Assembly (NCBI GenBank): GCA_028820655.1
Contig: JAPPIK010000015.1
Coordinates: 7,562-71,561 of the forward strand
DNA from: Candidatus Poribacteria bacterium
GTDB lineage: Bacteria; Poribacteria; WGA-4E; JAJDTR01
DNA: 64,000 bases
Reading direction: 5' to 3'
Positions 14,540 to 32,214 of this stretch are shown piece by piece. The first letter of the stretch is position 1; every line of letters starts with the position of its first letter. The notes below the pieces were generated by a model. It was given only the letters and a program-made list of their open reading frames with translations, had not been told where the DNA came from and made no database searches. The position numbers and the translations under genes were made by a program.

Positions 14540-15300
14540 CTCAGAACTGAGGGCGTTTTTCAAAAACCACGCGCTGTGGCTGGGATACCAGTTGCTGGTG
14601 AAGATGTTTTCTGGCAATCGGGCAAAGGTCTTGGCTCAATCCGTTGAGCAGTGGGACGATGTTACGCCTGATGGACTAGCGCCAAGACAAGCCGGTTGAG
14701 TGCAAATGCCCCATTGCTATGGACGAACAACCCGCCGGTTGGCGATACGCAAACCCAACAAGAAAGGTGGCTGCCGTTATGTGGTTCTGGTCATCACCGA
14801 TATGCAAGCCGACCTTTTGACACTGCTAGGGCGTTACGATGCGCGTAGTAGGGTTCCAGAAAGTATGTTCTGCCAGGATAACCAAGGCTTAGCCAAACGA
14901 AAACTGCGAAAACAGAAGTTCGAGGCACAGCAAATGCTTTGTCTGCTTTCCCAACTAGCGCACAATTTGATTCGATGGGTGCAGCGGTGGATACTCGATG
15001 TATTGGAGACCAATCGGCAGATAGAAGCGCATGCCCGGCAAATGCTCAGTCAGCCATTGCCCGACCAAAGTCCAGCTTTGCCAGACATCATCGCACAGAC
15101 AAAAAATCCATCAAGCAACGCGGTATTAAGCGATGGGTCAGACAGATGTTTGCCCTAAGCGGACGGGTCGTCATTAAACGGGGTTCGGTCACCCGTCTGA
15201 TACTCAACGCTGCTTACCCATTGATTGACCGCTTTGTCATAGCATTTGAGACTTTGTCAGGTCCTTATGGTGTCCATGTTTGCATCGGCAAAACCTGGCA
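14540..15300 (+). mobile_element. Degraded DDE transposase (IS1380/IS4-like), frameshifted with stops
   Basis: YDARSRVPESMFCQDNQGL..RKLR.QKFEAQQM..LL.QLAHNLIRW, then a second frame RGIKRWVRQMFALSGRV. Confidence 0.7.
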
Positions 15301-15906
15301 GCTTATCAACCGAGTTGGAACCATTGGAGGGCAATCAAACACAATCATAGCAAAGGCTTAGACGTGTTCAAGCACATGCAAGAATTCGCCGTATTCGGGC
15401 GAAAGTGAGGCCCTAAACTTTAGGCATTTTTGTAATGGTCAACCATATGTTGCGCACCTGCCGATAAATCGTCGGGCTACAATACGGCGCCCGATGAATC
15501 GGACTTCAAGCCCCAAGGGTGCTGTTCCGCAGCTCGATGGCTTCATCACCGATCTGTTTATTCGACTGTGCTATGACTCGAAACAAACTGCAGCGCAGCT
15601 TGTGCGAGGAAGCCTGAGCTGGTTTCACCATAGATGTTCCGCAATGTGCCTTTCGGCAGGTCTTTCTTCGGGTGATGAACAGTCACTCTGCTCGGTTTGT
15701 CGGGATGTTTGTATCGATGATGACTTCCACGAATGTGAACCCATATCCAACCTTACTCTCTTTACCCTTGCGATCACTTGGCGACTTGACATATTCCGAT
15801 AATACACACTGTACACATAGCATGTCAAGTGAGATTTCTTTGGCGTTCAAGGTGTTTGACAATCCGCTCAATCCGAGCTTATCGTTTCGCCAACCCAATT
15901 CGGAGA

Positions 15907-16125
15907 AGACTCGGAACAACTGTTGAATTGGCCTCCCATCTCGCACGAGCGTCACAGGACCATTGGTTTGATACTATGTTTGCGGGTCGATGCCGATGTA
16001 CCGGAAGAAGGAGGCCGCCAGGTCATCCGGCGTGACGCCTTCGTCGACAGGTGCCGAGGCGATGTCATCGGTTTCTCCGTTTGCTTGGCCGACTTGAACA
16101 TCTCCGCCTGCCATCAGTGGAAGGT
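15907..16125 (-). pseudogene. DUF1501-family C-terminal remnant
   Basis: LMAGGDVQVGQANGETDD...VTPDDLAASFFRYIGIDP...DGRPIQQLF, with stop and indel. Confidence 0.7.
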
Positions 16126-16561
16126 ACTTGACTAAATGACTTGGCTCTGCTATACTCATAAAAGTATTTCGATCTTTGACGAGGTACGAGGTTGCCATGT
16201 GCAATGCCTGTATGGCGTAAATCCTTGTGCGTAATCAGAAAACTAAAATTTCTGTCTAAAGGATGGGGGTAGGTACACTCTGATTGGCTGTTCCGTTAGA
16301 GTATATCTCCGCAAGGAGAAATTACGTTATAATCTCGATGACTGTCCCGAAAACTTTCGAGATCTGACTTGTTATCCATATGGAGCAAGGACATCGGGAG
16401 CTATGCGTAAGGAATCGCATGGATTGTGCATTTATATTTCCATATAAATTGCATCTTTTCCATGTAGAAAGGAATGGTCAATATTTACCGTTGTTACCTA
16501 GTTCATAATGCTCTACACAATTAAAAACCATCACGTAGTCATATTAAAGGAGGGTTTCGTG

Positions 16562-17347
16562 ATGAAGAGATTAGCTTTTCTTCTTGCAGCCGCATTGCTT
16601 TTAGCGGTTGTTCCCGTTGTTGGGTTCTCACTAGAGACAGATAACCATACGGTATTGCTCTTTTTGTTAGACGAACGCCATGTCGATGCTGATGGGGTTT
16701 GCTGCAATACTGTCAAAGACCTTTCAGGGTTAGGCAACGATGGAACGATTGAGGGCGAGATCAAAGTGGTTCCGGGGAAGATGAATAACGGTTACGAATT
16801 CGATGGGAATTCATATATCCAGGTTCCAAAATCCAGGGCGCTGGATATCACGCAACACATCACCGTTGAGGCATGGGCGAAACCGGAGCAGTTGGCCGGT
16901 GAGAATTTTATCCTCGATAAGAGGGCGGGTAATCCGCGGTTGGGATATGAGCTTTTCCAGGTTGACAACGTTTTTGGATTCATGATGGCGACCCCCGGAA
17001 AGAAAGCTGTTCTTAACCAAGACGAGCCCGCGCCTATTGGTACGTGGCAATACCATGCCGCTACCTATGACGGTAAGACGATGAAATATTATCGGGATGG
17101 TGAGTTCCTTAAGGAAACGGATCAGATTGGGGACCTTGGCGTTGAAAGTGACCTTTTCATCGGTATTGAAGGTTTCCCGGCTGGGACTAGACACCCCTAT
17201 AAGGGTGTTTTGGACAATATCCGTATTTCGAAGATCGCACGGACAGCAGACGAGATAAAGGAGACGTACAATAAAGTATCACGAATCGCCGCCGTGAATC
17301 CCGATTGGAAGCTCGCCCAAACTTGGGGCTTAATCAAAACCCAATAA
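16562..17347 (+). CDS. Secreted LamG-like jellyroll protein, copy 1
   Basis: AAGGAGG RBS, signal peptide, D.SG.GNDG, ITVEAW, WQYHAATYDG, GVLDNIRIS, C-terminal VNPDWKLAQTWGLIK. Confidence 0.92.
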   Translation: MKRLAFLLAAALLLAVVPVVGFSLETDNHTVLLFLLDERHVDADGVCCNTVKDLSGLGNDGTIEGEIKVVPGKMNNGYEFDGNSYIQVPKSRALDITQHITVEAWAKPEQLAGENFILDKRAGNPRLGYELFQVDNVFGFMMATPGKKAVLNQDEPAPIGTWQYHAATYDGKTMKYYRDGEFLKETDQIGDLGVESDLFIGIEGFPAGTRHPYKGVLDNIRISKIARTADEIKETYNKVSRIAAVNPDWKLAQTWGLIKTQ

Positions 17348-17396
17348 AGAATCCGGGGTAGTCCTTAAGATGTAAGGATGGGTAGTGCGCGGAGAA

Positions 17397-17615
17397 GACT
17401 CGGAACAACTGTTGAATTGGCCTCCCATCTCGCACGAGCGTCTCAGGACCATTGGTTTGATACTTTGTTTGCGGGTCGATGCCGGTGTTCCGGAAGAAGG
17501 ACGCCGCCAGGTCATCCGGCGTGAAGCCTTCGCCGACAGGTGCCGAGGCGATGTCATCGGTTTCTCCGATTGCTTGGCAGGCTTGAACATCTCCGCCTGC
17601 CATCAGTGGAAAATA
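17397..17615 (-). pseudogene. DUF1501-family C-terminal remnant, copy 2
   Basis: LMAGGDVQACQAIGETDD...TPDDLAASFF..GIDP...DGRPIQQLF. Confidence 0.7.
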
Positions 17616-18047
17616 CTTGACTAAATGACTTGGCTCTGCTATACTCATAAAAGTTTTTCGATCTCTGACAAGGTACGAGGTTGCCATGTGCAATACCTGT
17701 ATGGCGTAAAACCTTGTGCGTAATCGGAAAACTAAAATTTCTGTCTATATGGCGGAAATTATCTCTGATTGGCTGTTCCGTTAGAGTATATCTCCGCAAG
17801 GAGAAATTACGTTATGATCTCGATGGCTGTCCCGAAAACTTTCGAGATGAGACTTGATATCCATATGGAGCAAGAACATCGGGAACTATGCGTAAGGAAT
17901 CGCATGGATTGTGCATTTATATTTCCATATAAATTGCATCTATTTCCATGTAGAAAGGAACGGTCAATAATTACCGTTGTTACCTAGTTCATGATGCACT
18001 ACACAATTAAAAACCATCGCGTAGTTATATTAAAGGAGGGTTTCGTG

Positions 18048-18785
18048 ATGAAGAGATTAGCTTTTCTTCTTGCAGTCGCATTGCTTTTAGGGGTTACTCC
18101 CGTTGTTGGATTCTCAGAGACAGTATTGTACTTTCCGTGTGATGACATCCAAGGCGATACTGTCCAAGACCATTCAGGGGCAGGCAACGATGGAACGATT
18201 AACGGCCAGATCAATCTGGTCGCAGGGAAGTTCGGTAACGGTTACGAATTCGATGGGGCATCGATGATCCAGGTTCCAAAATCCGGGACGCTGGATATCA
18301 CGCAAAACATCACCATTGAGGCATGGACGCTGAAACACGAGGCGGGGGCCGAGGAGCAATTTGTCTTCGATAAGAGGGCGGGTGGTCCGCGGTTGGGATA
18401 TGAGTTTGTCCAGATTAACGACGCTTTTGGACCCCATTTTGTCACCCCGCCCGAAGTGAAAGCTATTATTTTGCAAGACGAGCCCGCGCCTCTTGGTACG
18501 TGGCAATACCATGCCGCTACCTATGACGGTAATAAGCTAGTATATTATCTGGATGGTCAGTTCCTTAAGGAAACGGATCAGAGTGGGGACCTTGGCGTTG
18601 AAAGTGACCTTTTCATCGGTGCGGAGAATGGGACCAAAGGGTTCTATGTGGGTGTTTTGGACAATCTCCGTATTTCGAATGTCGTACTGACAGAAGACGA
18701 GATAGCGCAGGCGTTCAATCAAGCTACCGCCGTGAATCCCCAATATAAGCTCGCCCAAACTTGGGGCTCAATCAAAACCCAATAA
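18048..18785 (+). CDS. Secreted LamG-like jellyroll protein, copy 2
   Basis: Same architecture; ends VNPQYKLAQTWGSIKTQ. Confidence 0.92.
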   Translation: MKRLAFLLAVALLLGVTPVVGFSETVLYFPCDDIQGDTVQDHSGAGNDGTINGQINLVAGKFGNGYEFDGASMIQVPKSGTLDITQNITIEAWTLKHEAGAEEQFVFDKRAGGPRLGYEFVQINDAFGPHFVTPPEVKAIILQDEPAPLGTWQYHAATYDGNKLVYYLDGQFLKETDQSGDLGVESDLFIGAENGTKGFYVGVLDNLRISNVVLTEDEIAQAFNQATAVNPQYKLAQTWGSIKTQ

Positions 18786-18793
18786 AGAATCCG

Positions 18794-18840
18794 GTAGTGC
18801 ACTACATTTCCCATCATTACATGTAGTGCACTACCCCATC
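18794..18840. repeat. Palindromic element with two GTAGTGCACTAC 12-mers
   Basis: gtagtgcactacat-N-atgtagtgcactaccccatc. Confidence 0.75.
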
Positions 18841-18854
18841 AGAAAGGGGGCGAA

Positions 18855-20864
18855 GTGGCCCAAGACAGCAAGTCAAATGTGGTACTGGCAGAGATCGATC
18901 TGTCTGAATGCGCGGCAGGCAAAATCCTGGACTATCGCGAGCCGGATAAACGCGTGGAGGAGAAGGTTTTCAAGGGCTGGAACAATGCCCTGGAATGGGG
19001 CCCCAAGCAGGGGAAACGGCCAAGTTCCTATCGGGTGGTTCGGGATGGGGAGGTGCCGGTGCTGGAACATCACAACAAAACCGGGCGCTGCCTTACAACA
19101 GGGGAGCCGCTGTGGGCGGATTACACAGTGGAGGCCTTTGTTCGGCAACTGAACGCGTTTACCCAGCCGAACAATGACGAACCACACGCCATTGTGGGCC
19201 TCTCAGGCCTGATGGTGCGATATCAGGATCTGCGGCGGTATTATATCTTCGCCATAGAGGGATATGAGCGCTTTGTGCTGTATCGCCGTGAGGATGAGGC
19301 ATGGACCATGCTCGCCGATTACCGGGATGGGGTGGACCGAAGTCGGTATTACCACCTGAGGGCGGTGTGCGAAGAAGAGCGGTTGGCGTGCTACGTGGAT
19401 GGAAAGCAAATATTTGTCGCCTATGACGAGAAGTTTCAGACGGGCAAGGTTGGCATCCGGACCAACACGCGCAGCCGGATGTATGGGGTACGGGTTACCG
19501 CGTCGGAGCCCGCCCGGGCGGCATACGCAAGCCGTCAGAGTGCCTATGACCGGGAGGTAGCGGAGGCAGCGGAAAAATACCCGAAGCCGGTGCTGTGGAA
19601 GCGGATCGACGTAAGCGAATACTGGCCTTGCGAGGTGCGGTTGGGAGATTTCCGTGGGGCCGGGAAGAAGGAGATCGTGCTGCAGCAGGAGACGGAATCG
19701 GGCATTCGGGTGGTGTGCCTGGATGCGGAGGGAGAAAAGCAGTGGGATCAGGTGTATGCCGCGGCGGCGGGTTTAGATAAAAAACACAAGGTAGTACACG
19801 ATCTGGATGGGGACGGTGTGGAGGACTTTATTGGGGTCGAAGGGGATCTGCTGCGGATGGTCAGTGGACGGACAGGCGAGGTAACGGCCGAGACAGAACT
19901 GCCAAAGACAGGGCCGTATCGCGGGTATCGGGGAAAGAGCGTGAGGACGTGTTTGCACAAGCTAGGAGCCTTGTGGCCGTGCCGAATTCGCAAGACTGAG
20001 AAGGCGCAGGATCTGATCTTGAGGGATGGCGACGGCGAGGGAACCGGGTACTCCATCTGGGCCTACGATGAGGCCTTGAATCTGCGGTGGCGTCAGGATG
20101 CGCACGAGTCGTGGTATGGGATGTACATGTGGTTCTATGACGTGGACGGGGATGGCCGCGATGAGATCCTGCCGGGGTATCAGCTTTACGATGGGGACGG
20201 GAACCTCCTGTGGCTGATGGAAGGCGCGGAATACATCGAAGATTCAGGGGGGGCCGGGCATATCGATCACGCCGCGTTTGGGGAATTGGACGGCGATGAA
20301 AGCAATGGTCCCGAGATCGGGATTGCCGGCAGCGATCCGGGATTTTTCTTAGTGGATGCGCGCACCGGGGCGCTGTTGAGGCATCACCGGTTTGGACATG
20401 TGCAGGGTATCTATGCGGGGAATTTCCGGCCGGATCTGCCGGGTTTGGAAATGTGGATGGGGAATCGCTGGGAAAACTACGGGATCTTGAATCTGGTGAG
20501 CGGCAAGGGAGATCCGCTGACGCGGTTCGAGCCCGACACAATCAGCCAGGGGGGGCCGCCAGTGAACTGGACTGGCGACGGCGAAGAGCTGCTGTTCCTC
20601 TATTCTTCCAGGGAGGCGTTCGGCTTCTATGACGCGAAGGGCAGAAAGGTGGTGCGCCCGGTATGTGAAGGGCTGCCATTCGAGTGGGCATATGGGTTGA
20701 CCGAGGATGTGGTGGGCGACGTTCGAGATGAAATTGTCTATGCTCACGAGGGGGCCGTTTATATCGTAACGCAAGATCGTCCCTACCCTCCCGGCGAACG
20801 AATTTATGCGCCGGAGCGCAGGTTTGATATTTCGTTGCCGGGCTGGAAGTTGAATGAGGGTTAG
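18855..20864 (+). CDS. Jellyroll (DUF1080-like) domain + DxDGDG beta-propeller, rhamnogalacturonan-lyase-like
   Basis: WADYTVEA...GKVGI N-domain; DLDGDGVED, DVDGDGRDEI, GHVQ...GNFRPDLPGLE, DVVGDVRDEI. Confidence 0.7.
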   Translation: MAQDSKSNVVLAEIDLSECAAGKILDYREPDKRVEEKVFKGWNNALEWGPKQGKRPSSYRVVRDGEVPVLEHHNKTGRCLTTGEPLWADYTVEAFVRQLNAFTQPNNDEPHAIVGLSGLMVRYQDLRRYYIFAIEGYERFVLYRREDEAWTMLADYRDGVDRSRYYHLRAVCEEERLACYVDGKQIFVAYDEKFQTGKVGIRTNTRSRMYGVRVTASEPARAAYASRQSAYDREVAEAAEKYPKPVLWKRIDVSEYWPCEVRLGDFRGAGKKEIVLQQETESGIRVVCLDAEGEKQWDQVYAAAAGLDKKHKVVHDLDGDGVEDFIGVEGDLLRMVSGRTGEVTAETELPKTGPYRGYRGKSVRTCLHKLGALWPCRIRKTEKAQDLILRDGDGEGTGYSIWAYDEALNLRWRQDAHESWYGMYMWFYDVDGDGRDEILPGYQLYDGDGNLLWLMEGAEYIEDSGGAGHIDHAAFGELDGDESNGPEIGIAGSDPGFFLVDARTGALLRHHRFGHVQGIYAGNFRPDLPGLEMWMGNRWENYGILNLVSGKGDPLTRFEPDTISQGGPPVNWTGDGEELLFLYSSREAFGFYDAKGRKVVRPVCEGLPFEWAYGLTEDVVGDVRDEIVYAHEGAVYIVTQDRPYPPGERIYAPERRFDISLPGWKLNEG

Positions 20865-31353: not shown

Positions 31354-32214
31354 ATGGTAAAGCTCACGCCCGACGACATTCGATTCTTTAGAGATGAGGG
31401 TTATGTCATCAAACGCAAGGTCATGGACGAGGATTTGATGACGCAGGCACGCGATAGACTGTGGGACAAACCGCCTCCCGGCATCGACCGAAACGACCCG
31501 AACACGTGGCGCGGCCCGATTCAAGCGCCGGAAGACAGGAAAAAACTGCCACGATCTGCCGAGATAGACTACACGTTTGACGGTTGGGCTTTGCCCAATC
31601 CGCCGTCGCACAACGATGAATATTCCACCGTGGATGGCACTTCCTGGAAATACCGGACGATCGGCACCGAGGACTTCTTGGTGCGAATGATTCTCACGGA
31701 TGTATCCATCTGGGGGATGGCTGAACAGTTGCTCGGCAATGGAAGTCTTGCCGTTCCGGCACGCACCCGCGGCATCTATTGCCGCTTTCCCCAACCTGAC
31801 ATTCCCGTGGAACCTCTCAAACCGCATATCGACGGCCATGAATTCCATTTGGGCGTGCTTGGGTTCATCGATGACGTGCCGGCAAACGGCGGCGGGTTCA
31901 CCATTTGGCCAAAGAGCCACCGCGTTTTCTATTATCAGCATCTCACGCAGTATGGAGGGGACAAGGCTGACACGTACGATGAACACTACGACTTACTCAA
32001 GGGACAAACAGTCATCGAGTGCTGCGGGGAAGCGGGGGACATTGTTTTCTTTCATCACAGACTGGCACACGCGGGAAACCCGCCGAACTATTCTCTCAAG
32101 ATTCGCAAAGCTATCATTGGCGACCTGATTAAAAAGGATCTCAAAGAGAAGCTGGATGAGCCTCCCTGCGATGACATGTGGCGAGATTGGCCCGGGATAG
32201 CGACAGACGGATAG
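31354..32214 (+). CDS. PhyH family dioxygenase, tandem paralog 1
   Basis: PHID, GGFTIWPKSH, AGDIVFFHHRLAH. Confidence 0.9.
   Translation: MVKLTPDDIRFFRDEGYVIKRKVMDEDLMTQARDRLWDKPPPGIDRNDPNTWRGPIQAPEDRKKLPRSAEIDYTFDGWALPNPPSHNDEYSTVDGTSWKYRTIGTEDFLVRMILTDVSIWGMAEQLLGNGSLAVPARTRGIYCRFPQPDIPVEPLKPHIDGHEFHLGVLGFIDDVPANGGGFTIWPKSHRVFYYQHLTQYGGDKADTYDEHYDLLKGQTVIECCGEAGDIVFFHHRLAHAGNPPNYSLKIRKAIIGDLIKKDLKEKLDEPPCDDMWRDWPGIATDG

What the first reader, a model, noticed from the sequence alone, without database searches (positions are those of the whole stretch)
16562..18785. Tandem LamG genes with near-frozen silent sites but ~35% amino-acid divergence
Seen: the upstream non-coding DNA of the two units is ~95% identical, and conserved residues almost always use identical codons. 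Yet the proteins are only ~65% identical by hand alignment, with whole-codon swaps (gag/aac, atg/ttc, aat/ggt, aat/gca, tat/atg) and in-frame indels. The few silent changes sit next to replacements. The PhyH pair at 31354/32246 shows the opposite, normal pattern. Changes are not adenine-restricted, so this is not classical DGR output. Inference: very strong diversifying selection, micro-gene-conversion among a large LamG family, or an unknown targeted diversification mechanism for a secreted lectin-like repertoire.
Basis: partly seen in the sequence, partly recalled or inferred. Interest (0 to 1): 0.8.

Follow-up and report, generated by a model that had tools for sequence, protein, structure and literature searches.

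The report
Fast-diverging tandem lectin-like gene pair
Two neighbouring genes for small secreted lectin-like proteins in a sponge-associated bacterium differ at a third of their amino acids while their silent sites and upstream DNA stay almost identical, which points to strong selection for difference plus DNA exchange between the copies, not a new mutation machine.

Summary
LamG-A (16562-17347) and LamG-B (18048-18785) share 162 of 243 aligned residues. Of those 162 codons, 154 are identical. Another 81 codons are replaced and there are six in-frame indels. dN/dS is 2.0-3.1 by four methods, and omega=1 is rejected (p=0.0004). Of 33 other LamG paralogue pairs in the same genome, 32 have omega 0.32 or less.

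The pair is stable in six closely related Poribacteria genomes. This argues against ongoing hypermutation. The changes are not adenine-restricted, no reverse transcriptase was found, and no donor patches exist in the genome.

The upstream repeats have no fixed A/B difference and 8 shared polymorphisms, so the copies exchange DNA. Database proteins include a third type and A/B/C mosaics, some on megabase contigs.

Replacements recur at the same codons, and stepwise intermediates survive in other genomes.

Verdict: diversifying selection on a fixed subset of codons, with gene conversion or recombination erasing neutral divergence. This is a new bacterial member of a known evolutionary pattern. 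The scan has noted the shared Poribacteria C-terminal tail before, on other DNA.

The parts
15909..16561 (+). Upstream repeat, copy 1: promoter-like site plus a leader of about 400 nt for LamG-A. It carries a remnant of a DUF1501 gene on the minus strand.
   Evidence: Aligns with 17398-18047 at 93.8% identity. Across genomes there is no fixed A/B difference in 538 columns, and 8 polymorphisms are shared.
16128..16156 (+). Sigma-70-like promoter match (TTGACT, 17 nt spacer, TG-extended TATACT) about 400 nt upstream of the LamG-A start.
   Evidence: This is a consensus match only; the total number of sites in the region does not exceed the shuffles.
16562..17347 (+). LamG-A: Sec signal peptide, Laminin_G_3 jelly-roll domain and the Poribacteria-type C-terminal tail (261 aa).
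   Evidence: Pfam PF13385, 77 bits against a 27.6 cut-off. AlphaFold2 model with pLDDT 87.8. Orthologues 96-97% identical in 5 other genomes.
17398..18047 (+). Upstream repeat, copy 2: promoter-like site plus the leader of LamG-B.
   Evidence: The 415-nt stretch 17646-18060 folds with z=-4.35. A contig from an RNA library spans 17327-18518.
17402..17603 (-). C-terminal remnant of a DUF1501 gene inside the repeat. The equivalent stretch in copy 1 is about 15913-16114 by alignment.
   Evidence: PF07394 profile positions 321-390 of 390, E=1.1e-9, on the ORF 17334-17693; alignment.
17617..17645 (+). Sigma-70-like promoter match, the duplicate of the site at 16128-16156.
18048..18785 (+). LamG-B: same architecture as LamG-A, 245 aa.
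   Evidence: Pfam PF13385, 72.9 bits. Orthologues 91.5-96.7% identical in 6 other genomes.

Best explanation
LamG-A and LamG-B are tandem paralogues of a small secreted lectin-like protein. A third, C type exists in other strains. The host is a sponge-associated Candidatus Poribacteria bacterium.

A fixed subset of roughly 80-110 codons is driven apart by recurrent positive (diversifying) selection acting on ordinary point substitutions and small indels. Homologous exchange between the copies and between strains (interlocus gene conversion and recombination at the conserved blocks) keeps the promoter/leader region identical, and probably the signal peptide and conserved blocks too. Neutral divergence therefore stays close to zero.

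The result is a gene pair with about 33% replaced residues, almost frozen silent sites, and naturally occurring A/B/C mosaics.

Shown here: the codon pattern, omega above 1, stability of the two types across genomes, recurrence at the same codons, exchange in the flank, and mosaic proteins.

Inferred: that conversion also homogenises silent sites inside the coding region, and that the selective agent is a binding partner (host matrix or glycan, host recognition, or phage).
For: Selection:
- omega is 2.04, 2.01, 2.71 and 3.07 by four methods, and 2.61 in my GY94 fit with omega=1 rejected (p=0.0004).
- omega rises to 3.7-4.0 (NG86) when codons within 3-5 of an indel are dropped.
- The same pattern holds in all 6 genomes that carry both copies (omega 1.9-2.6 by NG86; 95-98% identical codons at same-residue sites).
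- 8 silent-only codons among 89 changed codons, against 22.5% expected (p=0.0007).
- Fixed A/B differences are 82.5 replacement / 10.5 silent, against 48 / 20 within types (p=0.004).
- Within-type omega is 0.81 (A) and 0.92 (B), against 0.15 for the gene just downstream in the same genomes.

Same codons again and again:
- 31 of 79 A/B-different codons also vary within a type, against 9 of 164 A/B-same codons (odds ratio 11, p=2e-10).
- 14 of 46 multi-base codons have an on-path intermediate codon in another genome.

Point-mutation origin: replaced codons exceed the minimal mutational path by 16 changes, against 51.7 expected for independent codons. Eight old paralogue pairs run at 0.48-0.88 of their expectation.

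Exchange:
- In the upstream repeats, 538 columns of 9 copies show 0 fixed A/B differences and 8 shared polymorphisms. Between-type distance is 0.043, against 0.053 and 0.027 within types. The tree mixes A and B copies.
- Third positions of the 155 always-conserved codons have 3 fixed differences. Positions 1+2 have 72 fixed differences in 486 columns.
- Mosaic proteins switch type inside conserved blocks. They include a C/B mosaic on a 666-kb contig and an A/B hybrid cluster with 3 members from two sources.

Outlier status: among 33 other LamG pairs in this genome, 31 have dS of 0.57 up to saturation and 32 have omega 0.32 or less. The one pair with equally low dS (0.076) is 96% identical in protein, with omega 0.26.
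Against: - Inside the coding region the longest identical runs are only 40, 37, 28, 24, 22 and 22 nt. This is short for RecA-type exchange.
- Direct signs of conversion inside the genes are thin: 2 shared polymorphisms in 729 ungapped columns.
- The six genomes are close kin (dS 0.013-0.058 at the neighbouring gene), so they are not independent replicates. The 'within-type' variation is between genomes, not true polymorphism.
- All omega estimates ignore recombination and multi-nucleotide mutations.
- Replaced sites are not confined to loops (31 of 96 strand residues; 51 of 121 loop residues counting gaps). They are as hydrophobic as the conserved sites (0.51 against 0.48). No i/i+2 periodicity was detected. 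A surface-only arms race is therefore not shown.
- Several mosaics sit on contigs of 1.2-5 kb and could be assembly chimeras across the repeat.
- No DNA of the C type could be obtained.
Confidence: 0.6

Rival explanations
1. Recent duplication followed by one short burst of adaptive point substitutions (neofunctionalisation). There is no conversion inside the coding region, and silent sites are alike simply because the copies are young. Exchange is limited to the long, nearly identical upstream repeat.
For: - Replaced codons lie close to minimal mutational paths (16 excess changes against 51.7 expected), and on-path intermediates exist.
- Identical runs in the coding region are 40 nt or shorter.
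- Another LamG pair with similar dS (0.076) shows that duplications of this age exist in the genome.
Against: - Both types are already fixed in six genomes. Yet A/B silent distance at conserved codons (0.031) is no larger than between-genome dS at the neighbouring gene (0.013-0.058). The stem would need about 82 replacement changes against about 3-10 silent ones.
- Silent divergence falls off with distance from replaced codons, which a plain burst does not predict.
- Mosaic proteins show that coding segments do move.
- Within-type omega is still 0.8-0.9, so this is not a single burst.
Confidence: 0.22
2. No positive selection. The protein is weakly constrained (true omega about 1), and clustered multi-nucleotide mutations, indel-associated mutation and alignment error near indels inflate dN/dS.
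For: - Silent differences cluster in and beside replaced codons and near indels: silent-only codons drop from 8 to 3 when codons within 3 of an indel are removed.
- 38 of the 81 replaced codons have 2-3 changes.
- Within-type omega is about 0.8-0.9.
- Replaced sites include strand and hydrophobic positions.
Against: - The codon-level count, which treats each codon as one event, still gives only 9% silent-only codons against 22.5% expected (p=0.0007).
- omega rises, not falls, when indel neighbourhoods are removed.
- 162 of 243 codons are untouched, so constraint is strong at the remaining sites.
- All 13 gene copies keep open frames.
- One-step intermediates argue for serial single changes.
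Confidence: 0.08
3. Patchwise micro-gene-conversion from the roughly 50 other LamG paralogues of the genome writes foreign codons into A or B.
For: - The genome holds 55 LamG-like matches, many in tandem arrays.
- Silent changes ride with replacements.
Against: - blastn (word 11) finds nothing except the two units themselves.
- Exact k-mers of the two genes occur outside the locus at chance level: k=14, 72 against 59.8 expected; k=16, 1 against 3.8; k=18, 0 against 0.2.
- The other paralogues are at most about 32% identical.
- Replaced codons are much closer to each other than independent codons would be.
Confidence: 0.02
4. A dedicated targeted mutagenesis system (DGR-like or unknown) rewrites chosen codons.
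For: Codon-scale interleaving of replaced and untouched codons, and multi-base codon swaps.
Against: - No RVT_1 match in the 95%-complete genome, and no template repeat.
- Changes involve all bases and span the whole gene, with indels.
- The A and B types are 92-97% identical in protein across genomes. They also recur with 2-9 differences per roughly 500 nt in contigs of four runs from four studies. There is therefore no ongoing hypervariation.
Confidence: 0.03

Closest known systems
Duplicated genes under interlocus gene conversion with selection-maintained 'peaks of divergence' (Innan; Teshima and Innan 2008; human red/green opsins). I read passages of the review PMC3924837.
   Same: Neighbouring paralogues. 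Flanks and unselected sites are kept alike by exchange, and divergence survives only where selection favours difference. Paralogues can be as close or closer than their age implies.
   Different: This case is bacterial. About 80 codons and six indels are spread over the whole gene rather than one or two sites. Divergent and identical codons alternate on a scale of a few bases. Conversion is shown here only for the flank.
Helicobacter pylori bab adhesin paralogues (babA/babB/babC) and similar mosaic surface-protein genes. For the papers I saw only the search listing and the starts of abstracts; the rest is recalled.
   Same: Lectin-like host-binding proteins of a host-associated bacterium whose paralogues exchange segments and form chimeras.
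   Different: As recalled, the bab loci are dispersed, differ in one block rather than codon by codon, and show phase variation. Here the copies are tandem and no switching within a strain was seen.
Diversity-generating retroelement (DGR) target genes
   Same: A ligand-binding scaffold with identical scaffold codons and variable codons in between.
   Different: No reverse transcriptase, no template repeat, no adenine specificity. Variation spans the whole gene, includes indels, and is stably inherited.
'Accelerated evolution' of secreted animal toxin paralogues, such as conotoxins and snake venom PLA2 (recalled from memory, not checked here)
   Same: Signal peptide and non-coding parts are nearly identical, the mature protein is hyperdivergent, and dN exceeds dS.
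   Different: Those are eukaryotic multi-exon genes. Nothing here indicates toxin function. The fold matches are generic ConA/LamG jelly rolls at 12-20% identity.
Other stand-alone LamG (Laminin_G_3) proteins of Poribacteria with the shared C-terminal tail
   Same: Same domain, Sec signal, size and C-terminal tail. Often in tandem arrays.
   Different: 31 of the 33 other pairs in this genome are old (dS of 0.57 or more) and 32 have omega 0.32 or less. The A/B pair is the full-length exception.

Membership tests
Laminin_G_3 / ConA-like lectin-glucanase superfamily (PF13385) | Match to the Pfam model above its gathering score | tested here: met
   77.0 and 72.9 bits against a 27.6 cut-off, covering profile positions 2-151 of 151.
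Laminin_G_3 / ConA-like lectin-glucanase superfamily (PF13385) | Beta-sandwich jelly-roll fold | tested here: met
   AlphaFold2 model with pLDDT 87.8 and pTM 0.82, all-beta core. Foldseek matches to jelly-roll domains at E about 1e-13, including 5hon_A with TM 0.79 normalised to the target.
Laminin_G_3 / ConA-like lectin-glucanase superfamily (PF13385) | Carbohydrate or protein ligand binding | not testable with these tools
DGR variable protein | Reverse transcriptase encoded in the genome | tested here: not met
   PF00078 gives 0 matches in G000 (95% complete). The control genomes did give matches.
DGR variable protein | Template repeat whose adenines correspond to the variable bases | tested here: not met
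   No third copy by blastn. Of 135 differences, only 44 (copy A) or 34 (copy B) involve an A.
Paralogues under interlocus gene conversion with selection-maintained divergence | Polymorphisms shared between paralogous positions and no fixed differences in unselected DNA | tested here: met
   In the upstream repeats, 0 fixed differences and 8 shared polymorphisms in 538 columns of 9 copies. Four copies with rearranged upstream DNA were dropped. The tree mixes A and B.
Paralogues under interlocus gene conversion with selection-maintained divergence | Duplication older than the species splits, but silent divergence no larger than between species | tested here: met
   Both types are present in 6 genomes. 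A/B distance at third positions of conserved codons is 0.031, against dS 0.013-0.058 at the neighbouring gene.
Paralogues under interlocus gene conversion with selection-maintained divergence | Divergence peaks carry an excess of replacement changes | tested here: met
   omega 2.0-3.1, likelihood-ratio p=0.0004, McDonald-Kreitman-type p=0.004.
Paralogues under interlocus gene conversion with selection-maintained divergence | Conversion tracts demonstrable inside the coding region | tested here: inconclusive
   Only 2 shared polymorphisms in 729 ungapped coding columns.
Cassette-type antigenic variation (pilE/pilS, vlsE kind) | Silent donor cassettes in the same genome | tested here: not met
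   No further nucleotide copy and no donor k-mers.
Cassette-type antigenic variation (pilE/pilS, vlsE kind) | Many variants of the expressed gene within one population | tested here: inconclusive
   The laid runs are contigs, which drop rare variants. The contigs show only the A and B forms.
Poribacteria C-terminal tail proteins (scan-internal, undescribed tag) | C-terminal K-L-A-x-T-W-G-x-I-K-like tail within the last 26 residues | tested here: met
   Both A and B carry it. 50 of 55 LamG-like matches in G000 match the pattern W[GAS]x[ILVM]K.

The most novel reading that the evidence does not exclude
The A, B and C forms are segment types of a recombination-shuffled repertoire. Conserved blocks act as crossover points, so that strains of this sponge symbiont assemble different combinations of variable segments of a tail-tagged surface or secreted lectin. 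This would be an antigenic-variation-like system at population level, driven by an arms race with the host's recognition machinery or with phages. The conserved, structured 400-nt leader might be part of its control. A truly codon-targeted mutagenic mechanism remains possible only at about 3%.
Probability: 0.25. Interest if true: 0.65.

Novelty: new member of a known kind. Interest (0 to 1): 0.45.

Why it matters
Poribacteria are uncultivated and dominant sponge symbionts, and almost nothing is known about which of their proteins meet the host or its viruses.

This pair stands out against 32 of 33 other LamG pairs in the same genome, so it is a concrete candidate for a molecule under an ongoing conflict or under divergence in ligand specificity. 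It also gives a clean bacterial example of paralogues that diverge under selection while exchange erases neutral differences, a pattern documented mostly in eukaryotes.

The finding is directly testable. The two proteins are small, their variable positions are known, and natural mosaics exist.

It does not reveal a new diversification mechanism.

Tried and rejected
- Scan of metagenome contigs with the close-family alignment. The chosen patterns were too generic: 597 stretches matched and only 1 unrelated locus at 33% identity came back. No DNA of the C type or of the mosaics was obtained.
- Scan of genome contigs. It did supply the organism name.
- Order-wide search with P0005 (159 genomes). 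The C type is not in any species representative. One outgroup at 52% identity (G043) was found but not used further.
- Rfam search on 15500-19000: no match at E of 0.1 or less.
- Surface mapping. The structure tool returns no coordinates, so only secondary structure could be used. Replaced sites are not enriched in loops, and i/i+2 periodicity in strands is not significant (p=0.40).
- Read laying. All four runs are contigs, so read-level polymorphism, transcript ends and expression level cannot be read. Stretches without cover mean nothing. The RNA-library contigs over A and B are only a weak hint of transcription.
- Assembly artefact. Rejected, because the tandem pair lies in single-contig genomes G003 and G005.
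- Frameshift-compensated stretches as a source of amino-acid divergence. Rejected, because the differences are true substitutions spread over all three codon positions.
- The search of earlier findings by place returned nothing.
- Paper supplements were not consulted (closed). None bears on a claim made here.
Full report
WHAT IS THERE

The window lies in a 5.9-Mb, 61-contig genome. Near-identical loci in public records are titled Candidatus Poribacteria MAGs. The sequencing runs that hold the stretch are mostly labelled sponge metagenomes.

Two + strand genes lie at 16562-17347 (LamG-A, 261 aa) and 18048-18785 (LamG-B, 245 aa). Both encode a Sec-type signal peptide, a Laminin_G_3 domain (77 and 73 bits against a 27.6 cut-off) and a short C-terminal tail. 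An AlphaFold2 model of A is a confident jelly roll (pLDDT 87.8). Its fold matches are generic ConA/LamG-like domains at 12-20% identity.

Each gene is preceded by a repeat of about 650 nt (15909-16561 and 17398-18047). The repeat contains a minus-strand C-terminal remnant of a DUF1501 gene. It also contains a promoter-like site with an extended -10 element about 400 nt upstream of the start codon. The tandem unit is 1489 nt long.

- The upstream repeats are 93.8% identical (41 differences in 656 columns).
- The proteins share 162 of 243 aligned residues, with six in-frame indels totalling 20 codons.
- Of the 162 same-residue codons, 154 are identical. Of the 158 degenerate ones, 150 are identical against 56.5 expected for independent codon choice.
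- 81 codons are replaced, with 1, 2 or 3 base changes in 43, 31 and 7 of them.
- Differences fall 56/43/36 on codon positions 1/2/3.
- Silent-type third-position differences are 12/65 inside replaced codons, 7/78 in adjacent codons and 1/80 further away (p=0.002).
- Replaced codons are clustered: 99 runs against 125.5 +/- 7.8 in shuffles.

dN/dS

- Estimates are 2.04 (NG86, bootstrap 95% interval 1.34-3.57, 0 of 2000 replicates at or below 1), 2.01 (LWL85), 2.71 (YN00) and 3.07 (ML).
- My own GY94 fit gives omega 2.61 and rejects omega=1 (2dlnL=12.6, p=0.0004).
- A count that treats each codon as one event finds 8 silent-only codons among 89 changed codons, against 22.5% expected (p=0.0007).
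- Removing codons within 3 or 5 of an indel raises omega to 4.0 and 3.7 (NG86), because most silent differences sit near indels.

IT IS AN OUTLIER IN ITS OWN FAMILY

The genome has 55 LamG-like matches. Thirty-four pairs are at least 45% identical in protein, and the A/B pair is one of them.

- Of the other 33 pairs, 31 have dS from 0.57 to saturation.
- 32 of the 33 have omega 0.32 or less.
- Identical codons make up 33-79% of same-residue sites in those 31 pairs.
- The pair on contig C28 has the same low dS (0.076) but is 96% identical in protein, with omega 0.26. That is what a young duplicate normally looks like here.
- One fragmentary pair on C39 (88 aligned codons) has omega 1.17.

THE TWO TYPES ARE STABLE, NOT HYPERMUTATING

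- Both copies are present in five other genomes of the genus (G001, G003, G005, G007, G009). G004 has B at a contig end.
- A orthologues are 96-97% identical in protein and B orthologues 91.5-96.7%.
- The A/B pattern repeats in all six genomes that carry both copies.
- Three more divergent genomes of the genus lack the locus by protein and by DNA search. Their neighbouring DUF6785 gene is only 77% identical in nucleotides.
- Contigs of four runs from four studies, two of them RNA libraries, carry the A-specific and B-specific parts with 2-9 differences per roughly 500 nt and no joints.
- No RVT_1 reverse transcriptase is found in the genome.
- No third nucleotide copy exists.
- Exact k-mers of the two genes occur elsewhere at chance level.

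These results remove a DGR, cassette donors and the wider LamG family as sources of the differences.

HOW THE DIFFERENCES AROSE

Replaced codons lie near minimal mutational paths, with 16 excess changes against 51.7 expected for independent codons. Eight old paralogue pairs run at 0.48-0.88 of their expectation.

Fourteen of the 46 multi-base codons have an on-path intermediate in another genome. An example is ATG, TTG, TTC, which reads Met, Leu, Phe.

Amino-acid variation within a type falls on the codons that separate the types: 31 of 79 against 9 of 164 (odds ratio 11). Within-type omega is 0.81 and 0.92, against 0.15 for the adjacent RGL11-like gene in the same genomes.

Fixed A/B differences are 82.5 replacement to 10.5 silent, against 48 to 20 within types (p=0.004).

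Together these results point to recurrent substitution by ordinary point mutation at a fixed subset of codons, under positive selection.

WHY SILENT SITES LOOK FROZEN

I compared upstream repeats across genomes using 9 copies and 538 columns. Four copies with rearranged or inserted upstream DNA were dropped. There is no fixed A/B difference, and 8 polymorphisms are shared between A and B copies. Between-type distance (0.043) is no larger than within-type distance (0.053 and 0.027). The tree mixes A and B copies. With all 13 copies and 163 columns there are again 0 fixed differences. The copies therefore exchange DNA.

In the coding region, third positions of the 155 always-conserved codons have 3 fixed differences, against 72 fixed differences in the 486 first and second positions. 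The A/B silent distance there (0.031) does not exceed between-genome dS at the neighbouring gene (0.013-0.058). Yet the A/B split predates those genomes.

This fits the known model of duplicated genes under interlocus gene conversion, in which divergence persists only where selection favours it (passages of PMC3924837). There are caveats. Identical runs inside the genes are at most 40 nt, and only 2 shared polymorphisms are seen in the coding columns. Conversion inside the genes is therefore inferred, not shown. A young duplication with a sharp adaptive burst remains a serious rival.

MOSAICS IN NATURE

A protein search found 13 close relatives at 48-97% identity. Recoding them as A-like, B-like or other at each A/B-different column shows:

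- a third C type with 10 distinct members, most on contigs of 0.5-6 Mb;
- clean mosaics that switch type inside conserved blocks. These are C/B (P0177, 666-kb contig), A/B (P0002 cluster, 3 members from two sources), B/C (P0008), B/A/C (P0004), and C forms with alternative tails.

Mosaics on contigs of 1-5 kb could be assembly chimeras across the repeat. Those on long contigs are unlikely to be.

More distant relatives at 50-57% identity match A at 20-24 of the A/B-different columns, B at 29-34 and neither at 41-47. Both copies are therefore derived, and these positions vary across the whole subfamily.

WHAT REMAINS OPEN

Replaced positions are not confined to loops or to polar residues. No coordinates were available for a surface map. 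The ligand, the selective agent and the role of the tail are unknown. The six genomes are close relatives and do not count as independent tests.

VERDICT

The selection reading is supported. The donor-family and targeted-mechanism readings are not. This is a new bacterial member of a known evolutionary pattern. It is of moderate interest as a candidate host- or phage-interaction locus in an uncultivated sponge symbiont.

Noticed in passing
window 17294-17347 and 18732-18785; own genome contigs C2, C15, C27, C28, C57, C60 and others: 50 of 55 LamG-like matches in the genome end in the same short tail (about AV-x-P-x-x-K-L-A-T-T-W-G-x-I-K-x(1-4)-stop), although their LamG bodies are only 22-32% identical. 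Many sit in tandem arrays, for example nine in a row on C15 at 221.7-230.3 kb. Earlier notes of this scan describe the same tail as a Poribacteria-wide, undescribed C-terminal tag.
   Followed up: partly
window 16157-16561 and 17646-18047: A leader of about 400 nt lies between the promoter-like site and each start codon. The B leader (17646-18060) folds far better than shuffles (-120.7 kcal/mol, z=-4.35, 0 of 100 shuffles as good). There is no Rfam match. A contig from an RNA library spans 17327-18518. It could be a cis-regulatory RNA. Covariation was not tested.
   Followed up: partly
window 17402-17603 (minus strand) and about 15913-16114: Each tandem unit carries a C-terminal remnant of a DUF1501 gene (profile positions 321-390 of 390). 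The duplication therefore copied an already truncated neighbour.
   Followed up: no
window 14700-15361: Two overlapping ORFs with a weak DDE transposase match (PF13701, 22 bits, below the cut-off). This is probably a decayed insertion sequence just upstream of the pair. The upstream DNA of LamG-A differs between genomes from about here.
   Followed up: no
loci L013, L014 and L015 (genomes G001, G009, G007), leader of LamG-A: An insertion of about 200 nt sits at the same spot in the A leader of three genomes. It is absent from G000, G003, G005 and from all B leaders. G007 has a further insertion. It may be a small mobile element.
   Followed up: no
own genome, contig C39 39074-39439 and 43996-44169: A second LamG pair shows the unusual pattern, but it is fragmentary: 88 aligned codons, 45 of 52 same-residue codons identical, dS 0.22, dN 0.25, omega 1.17.
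   Followed up: no
window 18855-20864: The gene just downstream of LamG-B combines weak matches to 3-keto-disaccharide hydrolase/DUF6250, FG-GAP and the rhamnogalacturonan lyase family 11 C-terminal domain. It is 98-99% conserved in the six sister genomes. Like the LamG pair, it has no match in G002, G006 and G008.
   Followed up: partly
window 18518, run X17: The deepest RNA-library contig (1353 nt, depth 248) follows the B leader and the first 470 nt of LamG-B. At a conserved block it then continues for 155 nt with unrelated sequence. This is either a chimeric contig or yet another 3' variant.
   Followed up: no
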